A DNA stretch of 62,114 nucleotides, filler included, from Rhabdomonas costata (taxonomy: Eukaryota): the NCBI GenBank assembly GCA_019059605.1. It is 28 parts of 28 records of this genome, joined end to end, with 100 filler letters (N's around TTAATTAATTAA, not from the genome) between each part and the next. Parts side by side here need not be neighbours in the genome. Positions count along the whole stretch, not along the records: positions 51,115 to 53,235 come from JAHMHO010005479.1; 27 more parts are not named here. The stretch is one strand, 5' to 3'. The notes beneath the pieces were generated by a model. It did not search any database. It saw only the letters and a list, made by a program, of their open reading frames with translations, and was not told the origin of the DNA. Shown one piece after another: positions 8,519 to 53,678 of the stretch. Positions within the stretch are counted from its first letter, which is position 1. Each line of letters starts with the position of its first letter. The position numbers were made by a program, and so were the translations under genes.

Positions 8519-9299
8519 CTTAGGTAGTGCCCTGGACTGCAGCAAACCTTGTGAGGAGTGGCGCTAACTTTGGAAAGACTTTCAAGCGCACAGGGATAAG
8601 AAACAGGGGAGTACACGTTAAACGCCAGAAATTTGGTAAACCAAAAAATTCACTAAGAGGGAACATTGGAAAAAGGAAGAAGAATGAGAAAAGAGAAAAA
8701 GAAAAGCAAAAAAAAAAAAAGAAAAAGGTGTTGGGGTAAGGTTTCGGCCGTAAGTGACCCTGACCCAAGTGTCAAAGCTAGGTGCAAAAAAAAACCCNNN
8801 NNNNNNNNNNNNNNNNNNNNNNNNNNNNNNNNNNNNNNNNNTTAATTAATTAANNNNNNNNNNNNNNNNNNNNNNNNNNNNNNNNNNNNNNNNNNNNGGG
8901 TGTTGGTACTAGAATAAGATGTCCAATTACATTTTTAAAGCCACAATTCTTGTTGTTGAAGCTATCTCTTCACAATGAACTAAAATGTAAATAAAAGCTT
9001 CCTAAAGAAAGTGTAGTAGAAAATGTAATTGGACATCTTATTCTAGTACCTGCGCATGCACACCATTACCAGTATGTGAGGAGCCACATTGTGGTGCAAG
9101 ATGACATACAGCTCCTTTTTTTAACGTCCTGTATGATTCATCTGAATCCGTAGGTATTCACCGTGTACTTCAAGTCAGAGCAGCACAGACAGTTGGTGCT
9201 GCACCAAATTCTTCGTCGAAATTGTAGGCAATTATGAAAACTTCTGTGCAAGGAATCATGGCGATCACATAATGTACTTGAAAAAACAATGGAGAGTAA

Positions 9300-10300
9300 T
9301 TCATTGTTAGTAGTCATACTCTTCAAGTCAGCAGGTAAATGATTTGGTTAGTTGAAGTAAGCGCAAACCATGTGGTAACGTATCTCAATTAGGTGATCCA
9401 GTCCATTGAGGAAGTCGACGCTATATAAGAAGAGCTAGTGAACACCACAATTTAGTTATAATTGCTTTCAGCATGCTGATTGTCTTAGACCAGCATACAA
9501 TGCACATTTGAGTTCATGAATATACACAAAAGATGTTAAAAACAGAGTTCAGGAAGATCATTAAATTCACGTATGTAGCTCATGTGTCGTAATGTTGTAA
9601 ACACTGGCTTCAGTGTTGGTGACACGTCTGCATATTGTTTTGTGCTCTAAGCGTGTAGCAGCCTTTTTGATTTAAGTAATTCCAGAGCAGCGCGATAACG
9701 GAACGTGTAATCCAAATTTCACAAGTACCCAAAGAAGCCTATATCTCTAATGATTTTGGTTCGACTGGAAGGCGCTGAAGCGTCGCATTTGCTGGACTCT
9801 GGATATTTAGGCTCTTTCATCAATGCTGACGATGTTTAGAAGGCAGGATACATTTAATGCTCTTTTACTGTCGATTCATGTTGTACAAATTTAAATGCTA
9901 TAAAAGTTACGAGGTTTGTTTGCTAACTTATATTCTTGTGTGTAATTGACGCCCACGATTTTATTGTTTTCGGCAATCATTTACTTCATCAATTTATCAA
10001 ATTGCTAACGCGTTTTAGTGGACAGTAAAGATCATGACGTGTAAAAAAACGTACTTGCCTTTCTTTTGCAGCAAACGTTGAAGATTAATATTTGACATCC
10101 AACCATCACTTTATACTTTTAATATTCAAAACCATCACCTTAATTCCATTGAGTCAACTCACATTATTGCCGCTTTGTGATCTTTTGTTGGTACAAATTG
10201 TACACAATTGTATTTGAAACGTTTCCTGTGCAACTGAGAATGTTTCAATGCAAAGTTGGAAATCTTTTGCAGTGATTAGTAGGGTTGATCTGCAACACCG
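9300..10300 (-). mobile_element. Possible highly eroded hAT-type DNA transposase in an AT-rich contig
   Basis: Fragments in hAT-like order across frames: ITAKDFQ, SDGWMS, ENNKIVGV, LDYTFRYRAALE. Many stops and no long ORF. Confidence 0.3.
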
Positions 10301-11265
10301 ATGCACAAACTTGAAGCTTTGCAAGTGTAAATGTTGTTTGGGTACATTCCGGTTATCTGCCACAAGTTTTCCTGTAACCTGCCAAACAAAGCTACCATGC
10401 CTGTTAGACTCGCATTTATTCCAAAAGTGACAATTTCTACACAAACGTTTACGCCCCACAACGGCATTACACCAATGGATAGGACGTGCCATTTGAGCAC
10501 AGAATGTGACTAATAGGTTATGCTCAAGTTGACTACCTACTGGTTTGCAAGGAGCGCACATACAGAGCCGAGGTATGGATGAGGATATTAAACTTCCTAC
10601 AAATCACATGGATGACGTAAGACTTGGAGGCGACGTTGATATACATCTGGCATAGTAAATACACTTTCATCGAGTTGTCTGGAGACGAGCTGCCGATGAA
10701 AATTAATCCGGATGTGAAGTGGCACGCTCGAATCCTGCATGTAGTACCTGAAGTCTCTACCAAAAACATACAATTGGTGGAGAAGAAACATTAGTGGCGA
10801 TCAAAAAATACGCTCACAAAGTAAATGAACGTGCCAGCCTACCACAACTTTCTGTGTAATCAACCGAAAAACTGAAAACTGTTTTCTAAACTCCGTTACA
10901 TCACAGGAATACCAACTGACTCTGAAGGCCGATCTTGTTAAGAACAAGACGACTAGTCATGCCAAAATCATCTCTTACCTATTCATCAGCATTTGTACAC
11001 TGCCCAGAAAATTGTGTCTCNNNNNNNNNNNNNNNNNNNNNNNNNNNNNNNNNNNNNNNNNNNNTTAATTAATTAANNNNNNNNNNNNNNNNNNNNNNNN
11101 NNNNNNNNNNNNNNNNNNNNGGTTGTTGGGATATGTGCTCCCGGCAGGTACCTCCACGGCGCACGGTGCCGTGGGATGCAGGCTCACCGCCACAGCAGTG
11201 TGTGTGTTTGGTGAAGGCAGGTCCTACAGGAACACAAAGGCAATGCAAGCACATGGCACACGTAC

Positions 11266-16759: not shown

Positions 16760-17691
16760 TCACTTCTTTGTGACACGGTCCCGCGCCATCTTCACAATGT
16801 CGTAGAATACCTGCGGCTTCTTCATTTTGTGTGCGTACATTTCCAGACGAATCTCTTCAAGAGTAGCCGCGATGCGGAAAAGTTTATCCTCGGAGTGATG
16901 TGCCCCAGAGAGCTGCAAGCCGATTGGGATGTTGGAGCTGTCTGCCGTATCCACGGGAACGGTGATGGAGGGAAAGCCAACAAAGTTCGCCAAAAAGGCA
17001 TAGCGCATGATCAACGTCGTCTTGGAAAGATCGCTCCCACCGAATTCCACGGCATCCTCTGGAATAGGAGGTGGGCGGCACGCAGTGGTGGGAGTTACAA
17101 AGGCATCAAGGTTGTATGCCTTGATCAACTTGTTCCACAGCCGGATGGCATACGTGCGCACCTTCTGAGCCAGAACATAGTCCCTGCCAGAGAGCATCCG
17201 GCCCATCCCGAGTCCGATGAGCGTCTCAGGGTTGAACTCTCGGATCGCTCCGGTGCCATTGAGGAAAAACGTCTCCATTGATGAGCTCATCTCCGTGATA
17301 ATGGTAATGACGTGCGCGATCTGCACCACACGCAGAAATGGCAGGGTAGGAATAGTCACGATCGTCACTCCACGCATCAGCAGGTCGGTCAGTGCCTGCT
17401 GGCAAGCCTCCACAATGTCTGGGTTGGCGTCGTTGAACCATGGGTAATACACCCCCAGGCGGATCCCCACCAATGACTTGGTGGAGGTGATGCCTGCAAA
17501 ATGAACTGGAGGCAGCCCCTCTGTGGCGCTATCGTGGCTGTCAGGTCCCGCGATGATGGAGTACGCCAGCGCGGCGTCGTACACGGACCGTGTCATCGGC
17601 CCGATATGCCCCAGGGTCCAGTCCAGGGGGTAGGACCCATGGTTGGAAATGCGGCCGTAGGTAGCCTTGACACCCACCAACCCGTGGAAGG
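16760..17691 (-). CDS. Amidase-signature family protein (FAAH-like), C-terminal ~310 aa, intronless, 5'-truncated by the contig end
   Basis: GLVGVKATYGRIS, GHIGPMTRSV.DAAL, DAFVTPTT, YAFLANFVGFPSITVPV, PIGLQL, EDKLFRIA in one uninterrupted ORF. Confidence 0.9.
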
Positions 17692-32900: not shown

Positions 32901-34299
32901 AGAGACACCCCCGCTGGTCTCTCCTCGCATGAAGCACGCAGGACACATACAGTGATGCTGAACGCGATGACAGTGTTGGGGTAGCAGCAGTTTCCACCCG
33001 CCCACACGTGGGAGGCCGTGATGCACAGGCACCGCACCGTCTCCTCGACCCTCCCCAGCGCGGCAAAGGTCTGCACAAATACCCAACTCGCACACAAACA
33101 CAAGGTCTTCAAGGTCTGGAAAATCCCTGAAGTAAGTAATTCATATTCGTCTGTCCAAATCATGCGGATCATCACCGTAGGTTGTGGGGACTGCTTCCCT
33201 CCGCCCTGTCGCAGAAACTCAAAAATAAAGCTGTTCCACCACANNNNNNNNNNNNNNNNNNNNNNNNNNNNNNNNNNNNNNNNNNNNTTAATTAATTAAN
33301 NNNNNNNNNNNNNNNNNNNNNNNNNNNNNNNNNNNNNNNNNNNGTGTTTGTGGATCGCTGTGTGTCGCTGTCAATACAAACTTGCTGTAACGTGCTATTC
33401 TTTCAGCAGGTTATGGCAGTAATTCGCCGATGACAGACACCACGACCGACGTACAATGCGCAGTCGTGGAATCAAACCTGAAAGCCATCCGTATCCACAT
33501 TCATTGCACGGTCATTAGAGCCTTGCTGCTCAGGGTCCCATCTGCGGCAACCAGAGCAAGGTGCTAAGGTGTGTTCCAGCGACTCGAGAGCTCATCAAAC
33601 GCCGGGTGATCCCACGTGGCAAAACTATGGGCATGCTGAGTGACTGGCGTGGTACCGTGGCCACCATGAAGAAGAAGAGGATTCTGCGGCTGAAAATGAA
33701 GCACTAGGTCCCACTCGAGCCTGCTGATCCGCCGCAGCCGCATGGGCGGTAATGATGAGCACCACGCGCGCCTTCTTGGGTGATGAGCCCCCGACCGCAC
33801 GCGCTTGCGGCGGCTCTGCTGTGCCGCTACAGGTGGCTTGTACAAGGGGCCGTGTCCTCACGTCATCTGAGGAGGAGTCTTTGACGCGATGTTTCTGCAA
33901 CCGTACCAAGTAGCGGATCTTGGCCTTTCATGCTCTGATGAATGGATCCCAACATCTGGCCGGATGCTCACTTACAAACTGGTGCAGTTCTTTGGGATGA
34001 CACAGGATGAAGTGTAGGTACTATCAATTACCTTGTGCTGCATTCAGGACAAAAGCTCCTCTTTAGCAGCAACTTTATCCACTATACGCTTGGTGATGGC
34101 GCTGATACTGTAGCAGATATCGGCATTATTGCATGTATATAGCTGCTTGTGGTCCCCTCACACAGCAGAACAACAGGAGGCCTTGGCATCCATTTTGTCA
34201 AGTGGCACCGCCTGGATGAACGTATGGGCATTCACACAACAACCATGGAAATCGCCGCAGCGCGCTTCGTGGCCAGGAGCTGATGCGATGGCACGCAGA

Positions 34300-34738
34300 C
34301 GTGTCCTTATGGAGAAGTAGTCATAGAATACTATGCAACAGCGCAAACATCAGCGACCGTCAGGTCACAAAAAGATGACCAGTGACAACGAAGAGGTGGC
34401 GGGGACGATAGGAATAGTACTTCTGGTTCTAGGCATTGAGCCGATCACGCCGTATAATAACGGCAGCAAGGCATTTACAGAGAATGAGATGAAACAATCA
34501 AATGGATGATGATCGTCACCTCCACTTCTCCAATGCATGTGGCAAGCATTTTTCAAATGGCATATCTCTTGAGACAGCCGCTAAGAAAGAAAAAAAGCTG
34601 GTTCGATTTTCTTAGAATCATGAAGAATTTATTACTCCAGGAGTTTTGGACCCATAAATCGTTACAATCATTGAAGTTTAGTGATACGTCATCAGCTTCC
34701 ACATTTATACAACCCTGATTGAAGGATTCTAAACACAT
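34300..34738 (-). pseudogene. Possible eroded ABC ATP-binding (Uup-like) gene downstream of der
   Basis: An ATG lies just after der, followed by a Walker-A-like relic WVQNSWSNK and a Walker-B-like relic LEPEVLFL. Very degraded. Confidence 0.25.
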
Positions 34739-34829
34739 TTAAAGCGGAATTATTGCGTCACTGATACACCACTAGCTGTGCGTATAACAAATTGTTTTAT
34801 AGGTGGTGTCTATTTAGCGGAATATGGAT

Positions 34830-35464
34830 TGTGAGTCGCCTTGTACACAAACTCAACACCGCAAACAGCTATACCAAATTTTCACAAAAACTGTTGCTCA
34901 GATACTTCCTATATTTTTCGCTGAGCTCCATAAAGACCCTAATTCATATAGGTAGTGGCGAGTTTTTTTTACGGAATGTACTAATAGTGTATTTAATTTT
35001 CAGGTTGATTTAAAGAACTCAGAATATCTGTGCACCGTGTCACAGTTAACTATCATGCGACCACGTACACTACTACTCAGTTCAGGTAAAAAATAGTATC
35101 CATCGTGACCATCATAGTCTCGTAGAAATACCGCTTTATCTCCTCTAAAAAGGTTTTATCCAGTAGATCTATCTTATTTACAGCAACTACCATAGGCTTC
35201 TTTAGCATCTCTATGATTACTAGAATCCTCAGATCATGTCTCTCAACTGGAGCAGTAGCATCCAACATAAAAATTATGACGTCAGAAAAACTATCCGCTG
35301 CCAAAGAAGAACATAAAAACATCTGATCTACATCCCATCAATATATGCTTCTTCTACGTAGATCAGCAGTGTCGACGATGAAGAATAGTTTCTGCCTTCG
35401 CTTCAGAAACACCTGGACTGCATTCCTGATTGCTACGGCAATAGTACTAATCTATAGACTCTTG
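34830..35464 (-). pseudogene. der: Bacterial ribosome-biogenesis GTPase Der/EngA pseudogene (GD2 and KH-like domain)
   Basis: ISTIAVAIRNAV (for VSDIAGTTRD), IVDTADLRRRS (DTAG), stop, DVIIFMLDATAPVERHDLRI..KPMVVAVNKIDL, then out of frame LKIKYT..LSEKYRKYLSNSF. No introns and AT-richer than host genes. Confidence 0.8.
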
Positions 35465-51114: not shown

Positions 51115-51492
51115 GGTGTGTGTACCTCATATATCTTGTTTAAAATCGTGCGTATCACTTCTAGGAAAGAAGCAGAGGTCCAAATACTTCCCAGGATTGC
51201 AAGATTCATTAAGCCAGATTTAGGTAGCCGGGCAATTTCTCGTATATGCAACGCTAGGTCGCAGGTGACATTATTGGGCATGCTTTCTATGAGCCATTTG
51301 ACTAGAGCATGGCCTACATAGGACACCGATCGATACTGTAATGAACAGGAAAAATAGTAGAAATGGAAAGATGGCAAACAGCGACATGAAAGCCATGTAT
51401 CCAGCATGCTCTACGCCATTGACCCTTATGGTCACTTCAGCTGCCCTACAGAATAACCACAGGATGTTTCCGAGGGCAGAGAAAGGATACAT
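51115..51492 (-). pseudogene. YihY/virulence factor BrkB family membrane protein, Rickettsiaceae-like, frameshifted
   Basis: NGVEHAGYMAFMSLFAIFPFLLF continues in another frame as ..ESMP..IREIARLPKSGLMNLAILGSIWTSASFLEVIRTILNKIY. Confidence 0.8.
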
Positions 51493-51589
51493 GGAAGTCG
51501 CACAAGCACCATACCCGGTTCCAGTCTAGTCTTGGTGGAAAATACTTCAATGCAAAACTTGGTCTAATTTATGTGAATCTCTGCAATTG

Positions 51590-51855
51590 TATGACATTTT
51601 GGTTCTGCAGCGGCGTACGGTATATACAAGCCTGGGTGGCTGCTAGAGAGTTAACAGCGGCTTTTCAATGGCAGTTGTGGATTTGCGCCCTCTTGGTCTT
51701 CCTTCGTAGCGTTTTCTTGAGGAATTTGTACTATCACATGACCTTTTGGTCCTGTTAGATGAGCGGCGATGTGGAAACCAAAATGGCTGCTAAAGAGTTA
51801 ACAGCTGGCTTTCGGGGTTATGGATTCGCGCCCTCCTGGTCTTCCTTCGTGGTAT
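51590..51855 (+). repeat. Diverged tandem duplication (~147-bp period) between the yihY and mipZ relics
   Basis: ATGAC.TTTTGGT.CTG, TGGCTGCTA.AGAGTTAACAGC and GCGCCCTC.TGGTCTTCCTTCGT each occur twice, ~145 bp apart. Confidence 0.8.
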
Positions 51856-51867
51856 TCTATTACGTCC

Positions 51868-52687
51868 CTATGTGTCTGCTGGAGGTGTCCTTTTGCCCAA
51901 CTTATCTATCTGCAGAAATTGGAAGAAACTCCTAAGTTCCTGTCTGGCAACTATGTGGGACATGGTCACACCCTGCTGAGCATGATGTAAGTCGACAAGG
52001 GTCATTCCACGCAGGAATAGCTCTCTAAAGATCACCCTTTCACTAAATCCTGGCGCGACTCTGCATCTTACCCTGCGCGCTACCTCCTCTATGGTATTTG
52101 CCACTGCTCTCTTATTTTTTGCATCTATATTGCTCAGTCTGTTCCTTATGAGCACCCAGTCTATATTCCCTTGCTCTCTTTGGGCCTTTATCAGCTTTTG
52201 TTTCCACACTATCTCGCTGTATAGCGACAAGTTTGTCACCTGCATAGAGTCTGAATCAACTTTGGCTATAAGGTCCACGTCCAGAAAGCTGTCATTTATT
52301 GGGGTGATAATGGTATCAGCATGCGAGTGTGCTGAGGTCACCAAATCAGAAAAGCTACCAGGTGTATCCACCACAACTACATCTACCTGCTATTTTGCTT
52401 CATTTATCATACCCTCGAGCACCGCAACCTCCTCGGATGCTGGGATTGCAGAGTATTATTGCGTAGTGTGGAGGTATTTTAAGTTTGATCTCTCCATTAC
52501 GGTCGTTATATGTCTGCCTGTTCTGCATATACACAGACAGAGAATTCTGATGTTTATCGGCATCGACACTTGCCACAGATAAACCAAGGTCAAGTAGTCC
52601 AGCCACCAGGTGCATAGCGCATGTAGTCTTACCGGACCCACCTTTCACATTTCCTACTACGAATACGTGAGGTTTATTGCCTGACAT
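51868..52687 (-). pseudogene. mipZ: MipZ/ParA-family ATPase, Rickettsiaceae-like, with a frameshift and a premature stop
   Basis: GNVKGGSGKTT (deviant Walker A), VDTPGS, AHSHADTIITPINDSFLDVD, DWVLIRNRLS, GFSERVIFRELF, HIVARQELR. Frameshift near 52450 and an in-frame TAG near 52391. Confidence 0.9.
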
Positions 52688-52754
52688 TGTTCCCTAACAG
52701 CCTTGCTCTTGTTCGACAGCGGATCCCTCTTCCATCAGTTCCTGCGCTTTGGAG

Positions 52755-53200
52755 TTAGCTCTCATACGCCTTACGTACGAAGGAGTCAAGTAATGCAACC
52801 CCATAGCCGGTCGCTCCTTTTGGACAGTGATCTTTTGTTTCTTCCGAGAAAGCAACTCCGGCGATGTCCAGGTGTGCCCACTTAGCACCTTCTTTTACGA
52901 AGCTTTTTAAGAATTGTGCAGCTGTGCAGCTTCCTGCTTCTCCTGCCCTCGAGAAATGTTGGCCTGAGTTCATCATCACCAGATAATGCTCGTCCCCAGT
53001 TTCCCCAGTTTCATTGCCTGCCTCAATAAGCGTGTTGGCCAGCGCATCGTCGTCGCAAAAAAGGCCGGCGTAAGTAGAACCAAGCGCAACTTTTATCGCA
53101 CCAGTGAGTGTTGCCAAATCTATTATGACCTTTGGGTTGAATTTTCCTGTCCATACCACCGCAGGTCCGCAAGTACCAGATGACCCACTGCGTCCGTATT
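52755..53200 (-). pseudogene. pepA: Leucyl aminopeptidase (M17) C-terminus with substitutions and deletions
   Basis: NTDAVGHLVLAD (for NTDAEGRL), frameshift, IIDLATLTGAI.VALG, GSCTAAQFL, WAHLDIAG, KGATGYGVALL. The conserved LWRxPL and IADxxN segments are deleted. Confidence 0.88.
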
Positions 53201-53678
53201 GCGGACCTGCGGTGGTATGGACAGGAAAACACCACNNNNNNNNNNNNNNNNNNNNNNNNNNNNNNNNNNNNNNNNNNNNTTAATTAATTAANNNNNNNNN
53301 NNNNNNNNNNNNNNNNNNNNNNNNNNNNNNNNNNNCGTTTGAGGTTTTTTCTTTGGAAAGATTGCTGACATGGAAATGGTTGGACTGCCAGTGGCGTCAA
53401 GTTTCGGAAAAACGGGTAACCACACGGGAAGGGCGCTTGGATGTGAAAAAATCGCTTTTTTTTTTTTGCTGTGCAAGTGTGGCTGCCTTTGCACCACGGT
53501 TTGTTTCAAATGCTTTTCTCCAGTATGGTTTTAGGGATCGCGATTGTTGCCTTCAACCTCCCTCGTTTTGAAATTTGCATACAGAGAGTGCGTTTTTTCG
53601 GCTGTGAACGTCGCGAGTGTTTTTGACAAAGGCATGCTGCAGGAAAAATGCGCGCCTTTTTCCTTTTTCTCGATGCAG

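What the first reader, a model, noticed from the sequence alone, without database searches (positions are those of the whole stretch)
51115..53200. Rickettsiaceae-like pepA-mipZ-yihY block in which every gene is broken: candidate decaying endosymbiont insertion
Seen: three co-oriented, intronless, tightly spaced bacterial genes, each disrupted. pepA has NTDAEGRL changed to NTDAVGHL, a frameshift and two small deletions, one at a repeated AAACTGGGGA. mipZ has a frameshift and a TAG. yihY has a frameshift. Knowledge: the MipZ and YihY peptides closely resemble Rickettsia orthologues as I recall them, but the DNA looks more GC-rich than typical Rickettsia. Inference: uniform decay including catalytic residues fits neutral erosion of symbiont DNA in the protist nucleus, or an extremely degenerate symbiont. 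Either way it may record an undescribed Rickettsiales lineage.
Basis: partly seen in the sequence, partly recalled or inferred. Interest (0 to 1): 0.8.

Follow-up and report, generated by a model that had tools for sequence, protein, structure and literature searches.

The report
Decayed rickettsial DNA in euglenid assembly
A 2-kb piece of broken bacterial genes comes from an undescribed relative of the tiny-genome Rickettsiaceae that live inside protists, and other broken pieces of the same bacterium, one joined to a host retrotransposon, suggest that symbiont DNA was inserted into the protist's chromosomes and is decaying there.

Summary
The finding is a whole stand-alone 2.1-kb contig (C5479). 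It carries the 3' part of pepA, then mipZ, then the 5' part of yihY, and all three are broken. Trees place it in Rickettsiaceae, as its own deep branch beside three 0.6-Mb genomes (G001, G002, G112). These were the only genomes examined with yihY directly after mipZ.

Four more contigs of the assembly come from the same lineage. One, bamE-tsf, was flagged earlier by this scan without a donor. The others form an mgtE-engA-udg tract. One of its contigs lies in this window (33344-35464) and is joined to a decayed host LINE. The tract exists in copies 91-93% alike that diverge neutrally (13 nonsynonymous, 4 synonymous). No bacterial rpoB, rpoC or rickettsial 16S was found.

Best reading: symbiont DNA inserted in the host nucleus and eroding (about 70%). 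Against it: C5479 itself has no host junction and is single-copy. MipZ keeps 60 of 60 invariant residues. The two pepA catalytic changes sit in an amplification fold-back, and reads were unavailable.

This is a known kind of event (Wolbachia and Volvox insertions). I found no euglenozoan case in five searches.

The parts
52755..53200 (-). 3' part of pepA (M17 leucyl aminopeptidase), cut by the contig end; one frameshift, two internal losses, and E>V and R>H in the NTDAEGRL motif
   Evidence: differs at 6 of 35 invariant columns (2 substitutions, 4 gaps)
53142..53229 (.). Terminal fold-back: 53199-53229 is a perfect 31-nt inverted copy of 53142-53172; amplification artefact (inferred)
   Evidence: 3 of 28 contigs in the window have a terminal inverted repeat of 20 nt or more
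51868..52687 (-). mipZ pseudogene, full span; frameshift at 52435-52456, TAG at 52390-52392; otherwise well preserved
   Evidence: 0 of 60 invariant columns changed
51493..51867 (.). Enlarged mipZ-yihY spacer with two diverged copies of a unit about 147 bp long (70% over 145 columns, cores 82-87%); no convincing match in the loci held
51115..51492 (-). 5' part of yihY (YihY/BrkB membrane protein), frameshift near 51324, cut by the contig end
34816..35451 (-). Second donor contig (G000:C5471): heavily decayed 3' half of engA/der, in-frame TGA; second copy at 93% on C22443
   Evidence: 8 of 18 invariant columns changed
34545..34634 (+). 3' end of udg (uracil-DNA glycosylase), convergent with engA as in G112 and G001; its homology begins at the retrotransposon junction
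33506..34540 (-). Decayed 3' fragment of a host non-LTR retrotransposon (endonuclease-RT-RNase H family) abutting the udg remnant
   Evidence: 73% to a young copy, 110 of 229 differences C:G to A:T
33372..33503 (.). Piece of a second multicopy host repeat, probably an LTR retrotransposon (judged by eye from motifs in L142 and L144, not tested)
   Evidence: 24 matches on 24 other contigs; sequences

Best explanation
C5479 is a piece of the chromosome of an intracellular Rickettsiaceae bacterium. It belongs to an undescribed, relatively GC-rich branch of a small-genome clade. [quoted passage not shown] SHOWN: the donor lineage; the broken genes; five contigs from three distant parts of the donor chromosome; for the engA tract, a junction with a host LINE and neutrally diverging copies. 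INFERRED: that C5479 is nuclear like the engA tract. Also inferred: that DNA from lysed symbionts was captured at chromosome breaks, as with mitochondrial and Wolbachia insertions; that small deletions and C:G>A:T changes then accumulated; and that C5479 entered later than the engA tract, because it is far less eroded. The genes do nothing now. Their value is as a record of a symbiont.
For: Donor: MipZ tree, 11-row clade with G001, G002 and G112 99/84*, within a Rickettsiaceae clade 100/97*; PepA tree 98/97*. yihY follows mipZ in 3 of 30 family loci, 2 of 52 GTDB loci and 0 of 80 metagenome loci, always in these genomes. Same donor elsewhere: G112 is the best hit among 130 scored genomes for the EngA piece and the EF-Ts piece; bamE-tsf occurs in 3 of 20 loci and mgtE-engA-udg in 2 of 12, again only in this clade. 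Nuclear setting: bases 163-1197 of C5471 match a multicopy LINE (13 matches on 12 contigs), and the udg remnant starts where the LINE stops. Both sides have lost GC: the LINE 66.7% to 52.9%, and the donor part 37.6% against 46-47% in the less eroded donor contigs. Two engA copies are 93% alike, share the stop, and differ by 13 nonsynonymous and 4 synonymous codons. engA is an essential GTPase (established knowledge) with 8 of 18 invariant columns changed. No bacterial rpoB or rpoC, gatB, pepA 5' part or rickettsial 16S was found in G000. Control coding stretches in the same assembly are open: amidase 312 aligned residues, young LINE copies 331 and 499 residues.
Against: C5479 matches only itself in G000: no host junction, no second copy. 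MipZ has 0 of 60 invariant columns changed. Its indels read mostly as small losses, which also fits gene decay inside a bacterium. The catalytic changes in pepA lie in a fold-back loop. The library is amplified (19 of 28 contigs have G/T-rich 5' ends against 3.9% background), so one junction could be a chimera. Four other LINE copies run on past the junction, so it is not the element's natural end. The EF-Ts piece is open over 82 codons. EngA and EF-Ts rankings rest on small score gaps. The assembly holds other DNA (a green-algal-like 18S and an actinobacterial-like 16S, identified from recall). Missing core genes could reflect patchy amplification or filtering. Reads could not be examined.
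Confidence: 0.7

Rival explanations
1. Mixed case: the engA tract is an old nuclear insertion, but C5479 (and perhaps bamE-tsf) comes from a symbiont still living in the cell that is losing dispensable genes by small deletions.
For: MipZ is unchanged at 60 of 60 invariant columns. The lesions are mostly small losses. There is no host DNA on C5479 or C29537. The EF-Ts start is open. GC of 46-47% is uniform on these two contigs.
Against: No rpoB, rpoC, gatB, rickettsial 16S or long dnaK match in G000. Both purely donor contigs carry broken genes, and no intact donor gene was seen. Published 0.6-Mb symbionts have very few pseudogenes (10.1101/719211, passage).
Confidence: 0.14
2. C5479 is DNA of an intact bacterium (symbiont or culture contaminant), and its lesions were made during whole-genome amplification or assembly.
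For: Primer-like contig ends and terminal fold-backs. One lesion is in an A run and one is at a short repeat. Single copy, no reads seen.
Against: At least seven lesions in about 1.6 kb of coding DNA, against none in control stretches of 312, 331 and 499 residues. A 147-bp duplication diverged to 70% cannot arise in a tube. Sister contigs exist as copies 7-9% apart.
Confidence: 0.08
3. The insertions are real but lie in another eukaryote (or a large virus) present in the sample, not in the euglenid.
For: A green-algal-like 18S contig and an AT-rich, giant-virus-like polymerase contig (L061) are in the assembly. The LINE's relatives carry no organism names.
Against: The flanking repeats are abundant in G000 (37 matches on 36 contigs, a lower bound), as expected for the main genome. 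Non-LTR retrotransposons mark eukaryotic chromatin rather than a virus or bacterium (established knowledge).
Confidence: 0.08

Closest known systems
[quoted passage not shown]
   Same: Rickettsiaceae gene blocks with donor gene order, truncated, interrupted by host multicopy repeats and a transposon, in strains without a living symbiont.
   Different: There the donor is a hydra-group rickettsia close to living algal symbionts, the quoted murB and ddlB pieces have no frameshift or stop, and the tract was confirmed by PCR. Here the donor is an unsampled small-genome branch, decay is much heavier, there are several tracts, the host is euglenid-like, and nothing is confirmed at the bench.
Nuclear Wolbachia insertions, e.g. 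Glossina morsitans (PMC3998919; abstract only)
   Same: Rickettsiales symbiont DNA in host chromosomes, in several insertions.
   Different: Animal host, about 0.5 Mb per insertion, cytoplasmic donor known and sequenced. Here about 6 kb were found and no donor is known.
0.6-Mb Rickettsiaceae genomes G001 (L003), G002 (L004) and G112; the one named Rickettsiaceae of this size class in the papers read is Ca. Sneabacter namystus, a diplonemid symbiont (10.1101/719211 and PMC9254644; passages)
   Same: Nearest in both trees; share pepA-mipZ-yihY and bamE-tsf (all three) and mgtE-engA-udg (G001 and G112).
   Different: Only 57-64% identical over the main MipZ segment, with a long branch of its own (0.53). 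GC 47% and GC3 0.47 against 34-40% and 0.24-0.35. Their genes are intact. That this clade is Sneabacter's is my inference; no named Sneabacter sequence was retrieved.

Membership tests
Rickettsiaceae (donor) | Proteins branch inside the family | tested here: met
   MipZ within a 34-row clade holding all 5 named Rickettsiaceae rows, 100/97* (long end branch flagged, outgroup not monophyletic)
Rickettsiaceae (donor) | pepA directly upstream of mipZ, as across the family | tested here: met
   30 of 30 family loci; 3 of 52 GTDB loci, which are mostly other Rickettsiales/Alphaproteobacteria
Rickettsiaceae (donor) | 16S rRNA or multi-gene phylogenomic placement | tested here: inconclusive
   No rickettsial 16S found with a strict first look; only single-gene trees were possible
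0.6-Mb clade (G001, G002, G112) | Grouping in trees and clade-restricted gene orders | tested here: met
   99/84* and 100/99*, 98/97*; three adjacencies restricted to these genomes among the loci examined (queries came from these genomes, so divergent neighbours elsewhere could be missed)
Genus Ca. Sneabacter | Sequence identity to a named Sneabacter genome at genus level | not tested
   No named sequence retrieved. The deep branch and different GC suggest a separate genus.
Nuclear insertion of symbiont DNA (nuwt/Volvox type) | Junction with host DNA | tested here: inconclusive
   Present on sister contig C5471, absent on C5479; not confirmed by reads
Nuclear insertion of symbiont DNA (nuwt/Volvox type) | Loss of coding constraint | tested here: met
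   Stops and frameshifts in pepA, mipZ, yihY, bamE and engA; 13:4 nonsynonymous:synonymous between engA copies. MipZ substitutions are not in excess.
Nuclear insertion of symbiont DNA (nuwt/Volvox type) | Read depth like host DNA; nuclear signal by FISH or PCR | not testable with these tools
   No reads available for this window
Nuclear insertion of symbiont DNA (nuwt/Volvox type) | No complete intact donor genome accounting for the pieces | tested here: inconclusive
   rpoB, rpoC, gatB, pepA 5' part and 16S not found, but the assembly is fragmented and may be filtered

The most novel reading that the evidence does not exclude
A lineage of tiny-genome Rickettsiaceae specialised on euglenozoans lived in this euglenid's ancestry for a long time and shed DNA into the nucleus more than once. 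The tracts differ in age: mipZ is almost untouched, while engA is as worn as the 27%-diverged LINE beside it. The host genome would then hold a layered fossil record of an unsampled, unusually GC-rich symbiont genus, where diplonemid hosts were reported to show no such transfer. Gene transfer agents, known from this kind of symbiont, are a possible but untested vehicle.
Probability: 0.35. Interest if true: 0.7.

Novelty: new member of a known kind. Interest (0 to 1): 0.52.

Why it matters
A 2026 preprint found no symbiont sequence integrated in five symbiont-bearing diplonemid genomes (10.64898/2026.01.29.702485; abstract and one results section read). If confirmed, this would be a counter-example within Euglenozoa: symbiont DNA does reach the nucleus, but dies there, so gene-based HGT screens miss it. 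It would extend the 0.6-Mb Rickettsiaceae clade to a euglenid host and to a GC-rich branch with no genome in the collections searched. It also gives primers for finding the living bacterium. It reveals no new mechanism or function.

Tried and rejected
Reads: none were available for this window, so the lesions and the junction are unconfirmed.

Further donor DNA in G000:
- rpoC: 3 weak matches, eukaryote- or virus-type on reading.
- rpoB: 2 matches, host-type exons.
- pepA full length: only C5479.
- gatB: none.
- dnaK: 41 mostly exon-sized matches, none read.
- C29537 has no second copy.
- The longest contigs of G000 were not sampled, so the total amount of donor DNA is unknown.

Other tests:
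- The YihY invariant-column test is uninformative with 3 homologues (20 of 61 against a mean of 16.7).
- The mipZ-yihY spacer has no convincing match among the loci held.
- Rejected: that base 1190 of C5471 is the natural end of the repeat (four copies continue past it).
- Rejected: the window's amidase as donor DNA (27.6% to G112 GatA, intact).
- Rejected: a reassigned stop codon, because there is one TAG in mipZ alongside frameshifts and normal stops.
- Earlier-findings look-ups by sequence, by words and by nearby place returned nothing.

Full report
SETTING. The window is 28 unrelated contigs of about 2.1 kb joined by N spacers. The finding is one whole contig, 51115-53235, which is G000:C5479 and matches only itself in a 97-Mb assembly of 104,289 contigs. 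The DNA was amplified: 19 of 28 contigs begin with at least 8 of 9 G/T and 18 of 28 end with at least 8 of 9 C/A, against 3.9% for random inner positions, and 3 of 28 have terminal fold-backs. The best-scoring 18S (L057) looks euglenid to me from recall. Earlier notes of this scan name Rhabdomonas costata; I did not verify that. A green-algal-like 18S and an actinobacterial-like 16S piece are also present (identified from recall).

OBSERVATION. The minus strand carries the 3' part of pepA, all of mipZ and the 5' part of yihY. Aligned to intact relatives, pepA has a 1-base loss near 53145, a 5-7 residue loss at the repeated AAACTGGGG, a further loss near 52965-52947 that restores the frame, and E>V and R>H in NTDAEGRL. 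mipZ has a frameshift at 52435-52456 and a TAG at 52390-52392. yihY has a frameshift near 51324. The mipZ-yihY spacer is about 375 bp and holds a 147-bp duplication diverged to 70%; relatives have 36-58 bp. Two cautions apply. Bases 53199-53229 are a perfect fold-back of 53142-53172, and the two catalytic changes lie in its loop. Substitution load is also uneven. MipZ differs at 0 of 60 columns invariant in 38 homologues (their own mean 0.45, maximum 2). PepA differs at 6 of 35, four of them gaps (30 homologues, mean 0.33, maximum 4).

DONOR. The C-terminal MipZ piece has 2857 relatives among 2927 candidates. In GTDB genomes two Rickettsiales MAGs stand out (L003 64%, L004 63%, the rest 58% or less; 52 loci). 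Among 130 scored genomes of their family, 122 match. The top three are G001, G002 and G112, all about 0.6 Mb (E 1e-71 to 5e-69, next 6e-64). A 53-row MipZ tree puts the window sequence in an 11-row clade with these three (99/84*). That clade lies inside a 34-row clade holding all five named Rickettsiaceae rows (100/97*). The window's own branch is long (0.53) and flagged, and the outgroup is not monophyletic. A PepA tree (21 of 30 family pieces, those that kept the motif used for trimming) gives 98/97* for the window plus the three. pepA precedes mipZ in 30 of 30 family loci. yihY follows it in only 3 of 30 (the same three genomes), 2 of 52 GTDB loci (G001, G002) and 0 of 80 metagenome loci (flanks are short and the queries came from this clade). 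The donor was GC-richer than these relatives: 46.9% against 35.8% for the block, and GC3 0.47 against 0.24-0.35. The only named Rickettsiaceae of this size class in the papers I read is Ca. Sneabacter namystus, a diplonemid symbiont (10.1101/719211, passages). That the clade is Sneabacter's is my inference.

MORE OF THE SAME DONOR. (a) C29537 (L071, 1082 bp, GC 45.7%), flagged earlier as e1-7218162, has bamE with a TAG followed by tsf. This order occurs in 3 of 20 loci, again G001, G002 and G112, and G112 is the best hit for the EF-Ts piece (small margin). EF-Ts differs at 4 of 13 invariant columns but is open over 82 codons. (b) Window 33344-35464 (C5471) carries a worn engA 3' half and the 3' end of udg, convergent as in G112. 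G112 is the best hit, and mgtE-engA-udg occurs in 2 of 12 loci (G112, G001). EngA differs at 8 of 18 invariant columns (12 homologues, mean 0.42). (c) C22443 repeats 264 bp of engA at 93% and continues through the 5' part of engA. C72839 repeats about 475 bp of C22443 at 91% and holds an mgtE 3' remnant (E 3e-9). The two engA copies share the stop and differ in 13 nonsynonymous and 4 synonymous codons, as expected without selection. In G112 the three tracts lie at about 243, 298 and 567 kb.

HOST JUNCTION. Bases 13-1197 of C5471 give 37 matches on 36 other contigs, a lower bound. Bases 163-1197 are the 3' part of a non-LTR retrotransposon. A young copy has RNase H and zf-RVT matches below Pfam's cut-offs. 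Its 32 relatives are mostly proteins with RT, RNase H and/or endonuclease domains, without organism names. The C5471 copy matches residues 1383-1579 of one of them, with stops. It is 73% identical to a young copy; 110 of 229 differences are C:G to A:T (direction assumed from the GC-rich copy), and GC falls from 66.7% to 52.9%. The udg remnant starts within about ten bases of where the element stops. Four other copies continue past that point, so the junction is a 5' truncation, a later break or a chimera. Against a chimera, both sides are worn: the donor side is 37.6% GC against 46-47% in the less worn donor contigs. A chimera would also not explain an essential GTPase decaying in two diverged copies.

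NO LIVING DONOR SEEN. Bacterial rpoC and rpoB, the pepA 5' part, gatB and rickettsial 16S (strict first look) were not found. dnaK gave 41 mostly exon-sized matches that I could not read. The same searches found the G001 and G002 genes, C5479 and C29537, so they can see such pieces, but a patchy or filtered assembly could hide them. Control coding stretches are unbroken: an amidase over 312 aligned residues and young LINE copies over 331 and 499, though another part of L157 has stops. A paper on the species that earlier notes name has no word beginning 'rickettsi' in its main text (PMC8219788, keyword passages); its supplements were not seen.

HOW IT MOST LIKELY WORKS. DNA from lysed intracellular bacteria was captured at chromosome breaks (inferred, by analogy with mitochondrial and Wolbachia insertions). 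Bacterial promoters do not work there, so the genes lost constraint and collected small deletions, stops, duplications, retroelement neighbours and C:G>A:T changes (shown for the engA tract, inferred for C5479). C5479 is much less worn, which suggests a later entry or a slower region (not separable here). Gene transfer agents are reported from Sneabacter (PMC9254644, passages) and could deliver kilobase pieces; nothing here tests that. I put this reading at 0.70. The rivals are a living degenerate symbiont for C5479 (0.14), amplification damage (0.08) and another eukaryote in the sample (0.08).

COMPARISON AND NOVELTY. It works like the rickettsial tract in the Volvox carteri nucleus (PMC4324946, passages) and like Wolbachia insertions (PMC3998919, abstract). 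Membership in that kind is met for decay, inconclusive for the junction and untestable here for depth and location. Five literature searches (open-access PMC and bioRxiv only) showed no rickettsial insertion in a euglenozoan. One preprint reports none in five diplonemid strains whose symbionts are Holosporales and Chlamydiales (abstract and one section). A review lists Rickettsiales in Petalomonas and Eutreptiella by association only (PMC8061765, passages). A further preprint was read only for its Sneabacter passages (10.1101/2023.02.26.530123). Verdict: a real feature, a new member of a known kind, with a new donor branch and a new host group; interest 0.52.

Noticed in passing
window 33344-35464 (G000:C5471): Second donor contig in the same window: decayed engA and udg joined to a decayed host LINE and a piece of another repeat; the best evidence for nuclear location.
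   Followed up: yes
window 33506-34540 against L138; also L145 against L144 by eye: Old repeat copies show a strong C:G>A:T transversion bias (110 of 229 differences), an unusual neutral mutation spectrum that may be genome-wide in this host.
   Followed up: partly
L138:1070-1174, L140, L160, L161, L162: Young copies of the LINE end next to short WD40-like coding repeats in several contigs (judged by eye), which may be a preferred target or part of the element.
   Followed up: no
L056 = G000:C25815 and L055 = G000:C63185: A green-algal-like 18S contig with a terminal fold-back and an actinobacterial-like 16S piece (both identified from recall): other organisms' DNA is in the assembly.
   Followed up: no
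L061 = G000:C29018: 26.6% GC, intronless RNA polymerase large-subunit piece with a 345-codon open frame, giant-virus-like.
   Followed up: no
window 16760-17680: Intact, intron-free 306-codon amidase-family frame (Pfam E 2e-33); not donor-like; used only as a control.
   Followed up: partly
window 8898-11020: AT-richer contig (38.9% GC) with a terminal inverted repeat; no match to G112 proteins at E 1e-4.
   Followed up: no
window 51591-51861: Two diverged copies of a 147-bp unit in the mipZ-yihY spacer; the differences look mostly like transitions, so the duplication may date from the bacterium rather than the host.
   Followed up: partly
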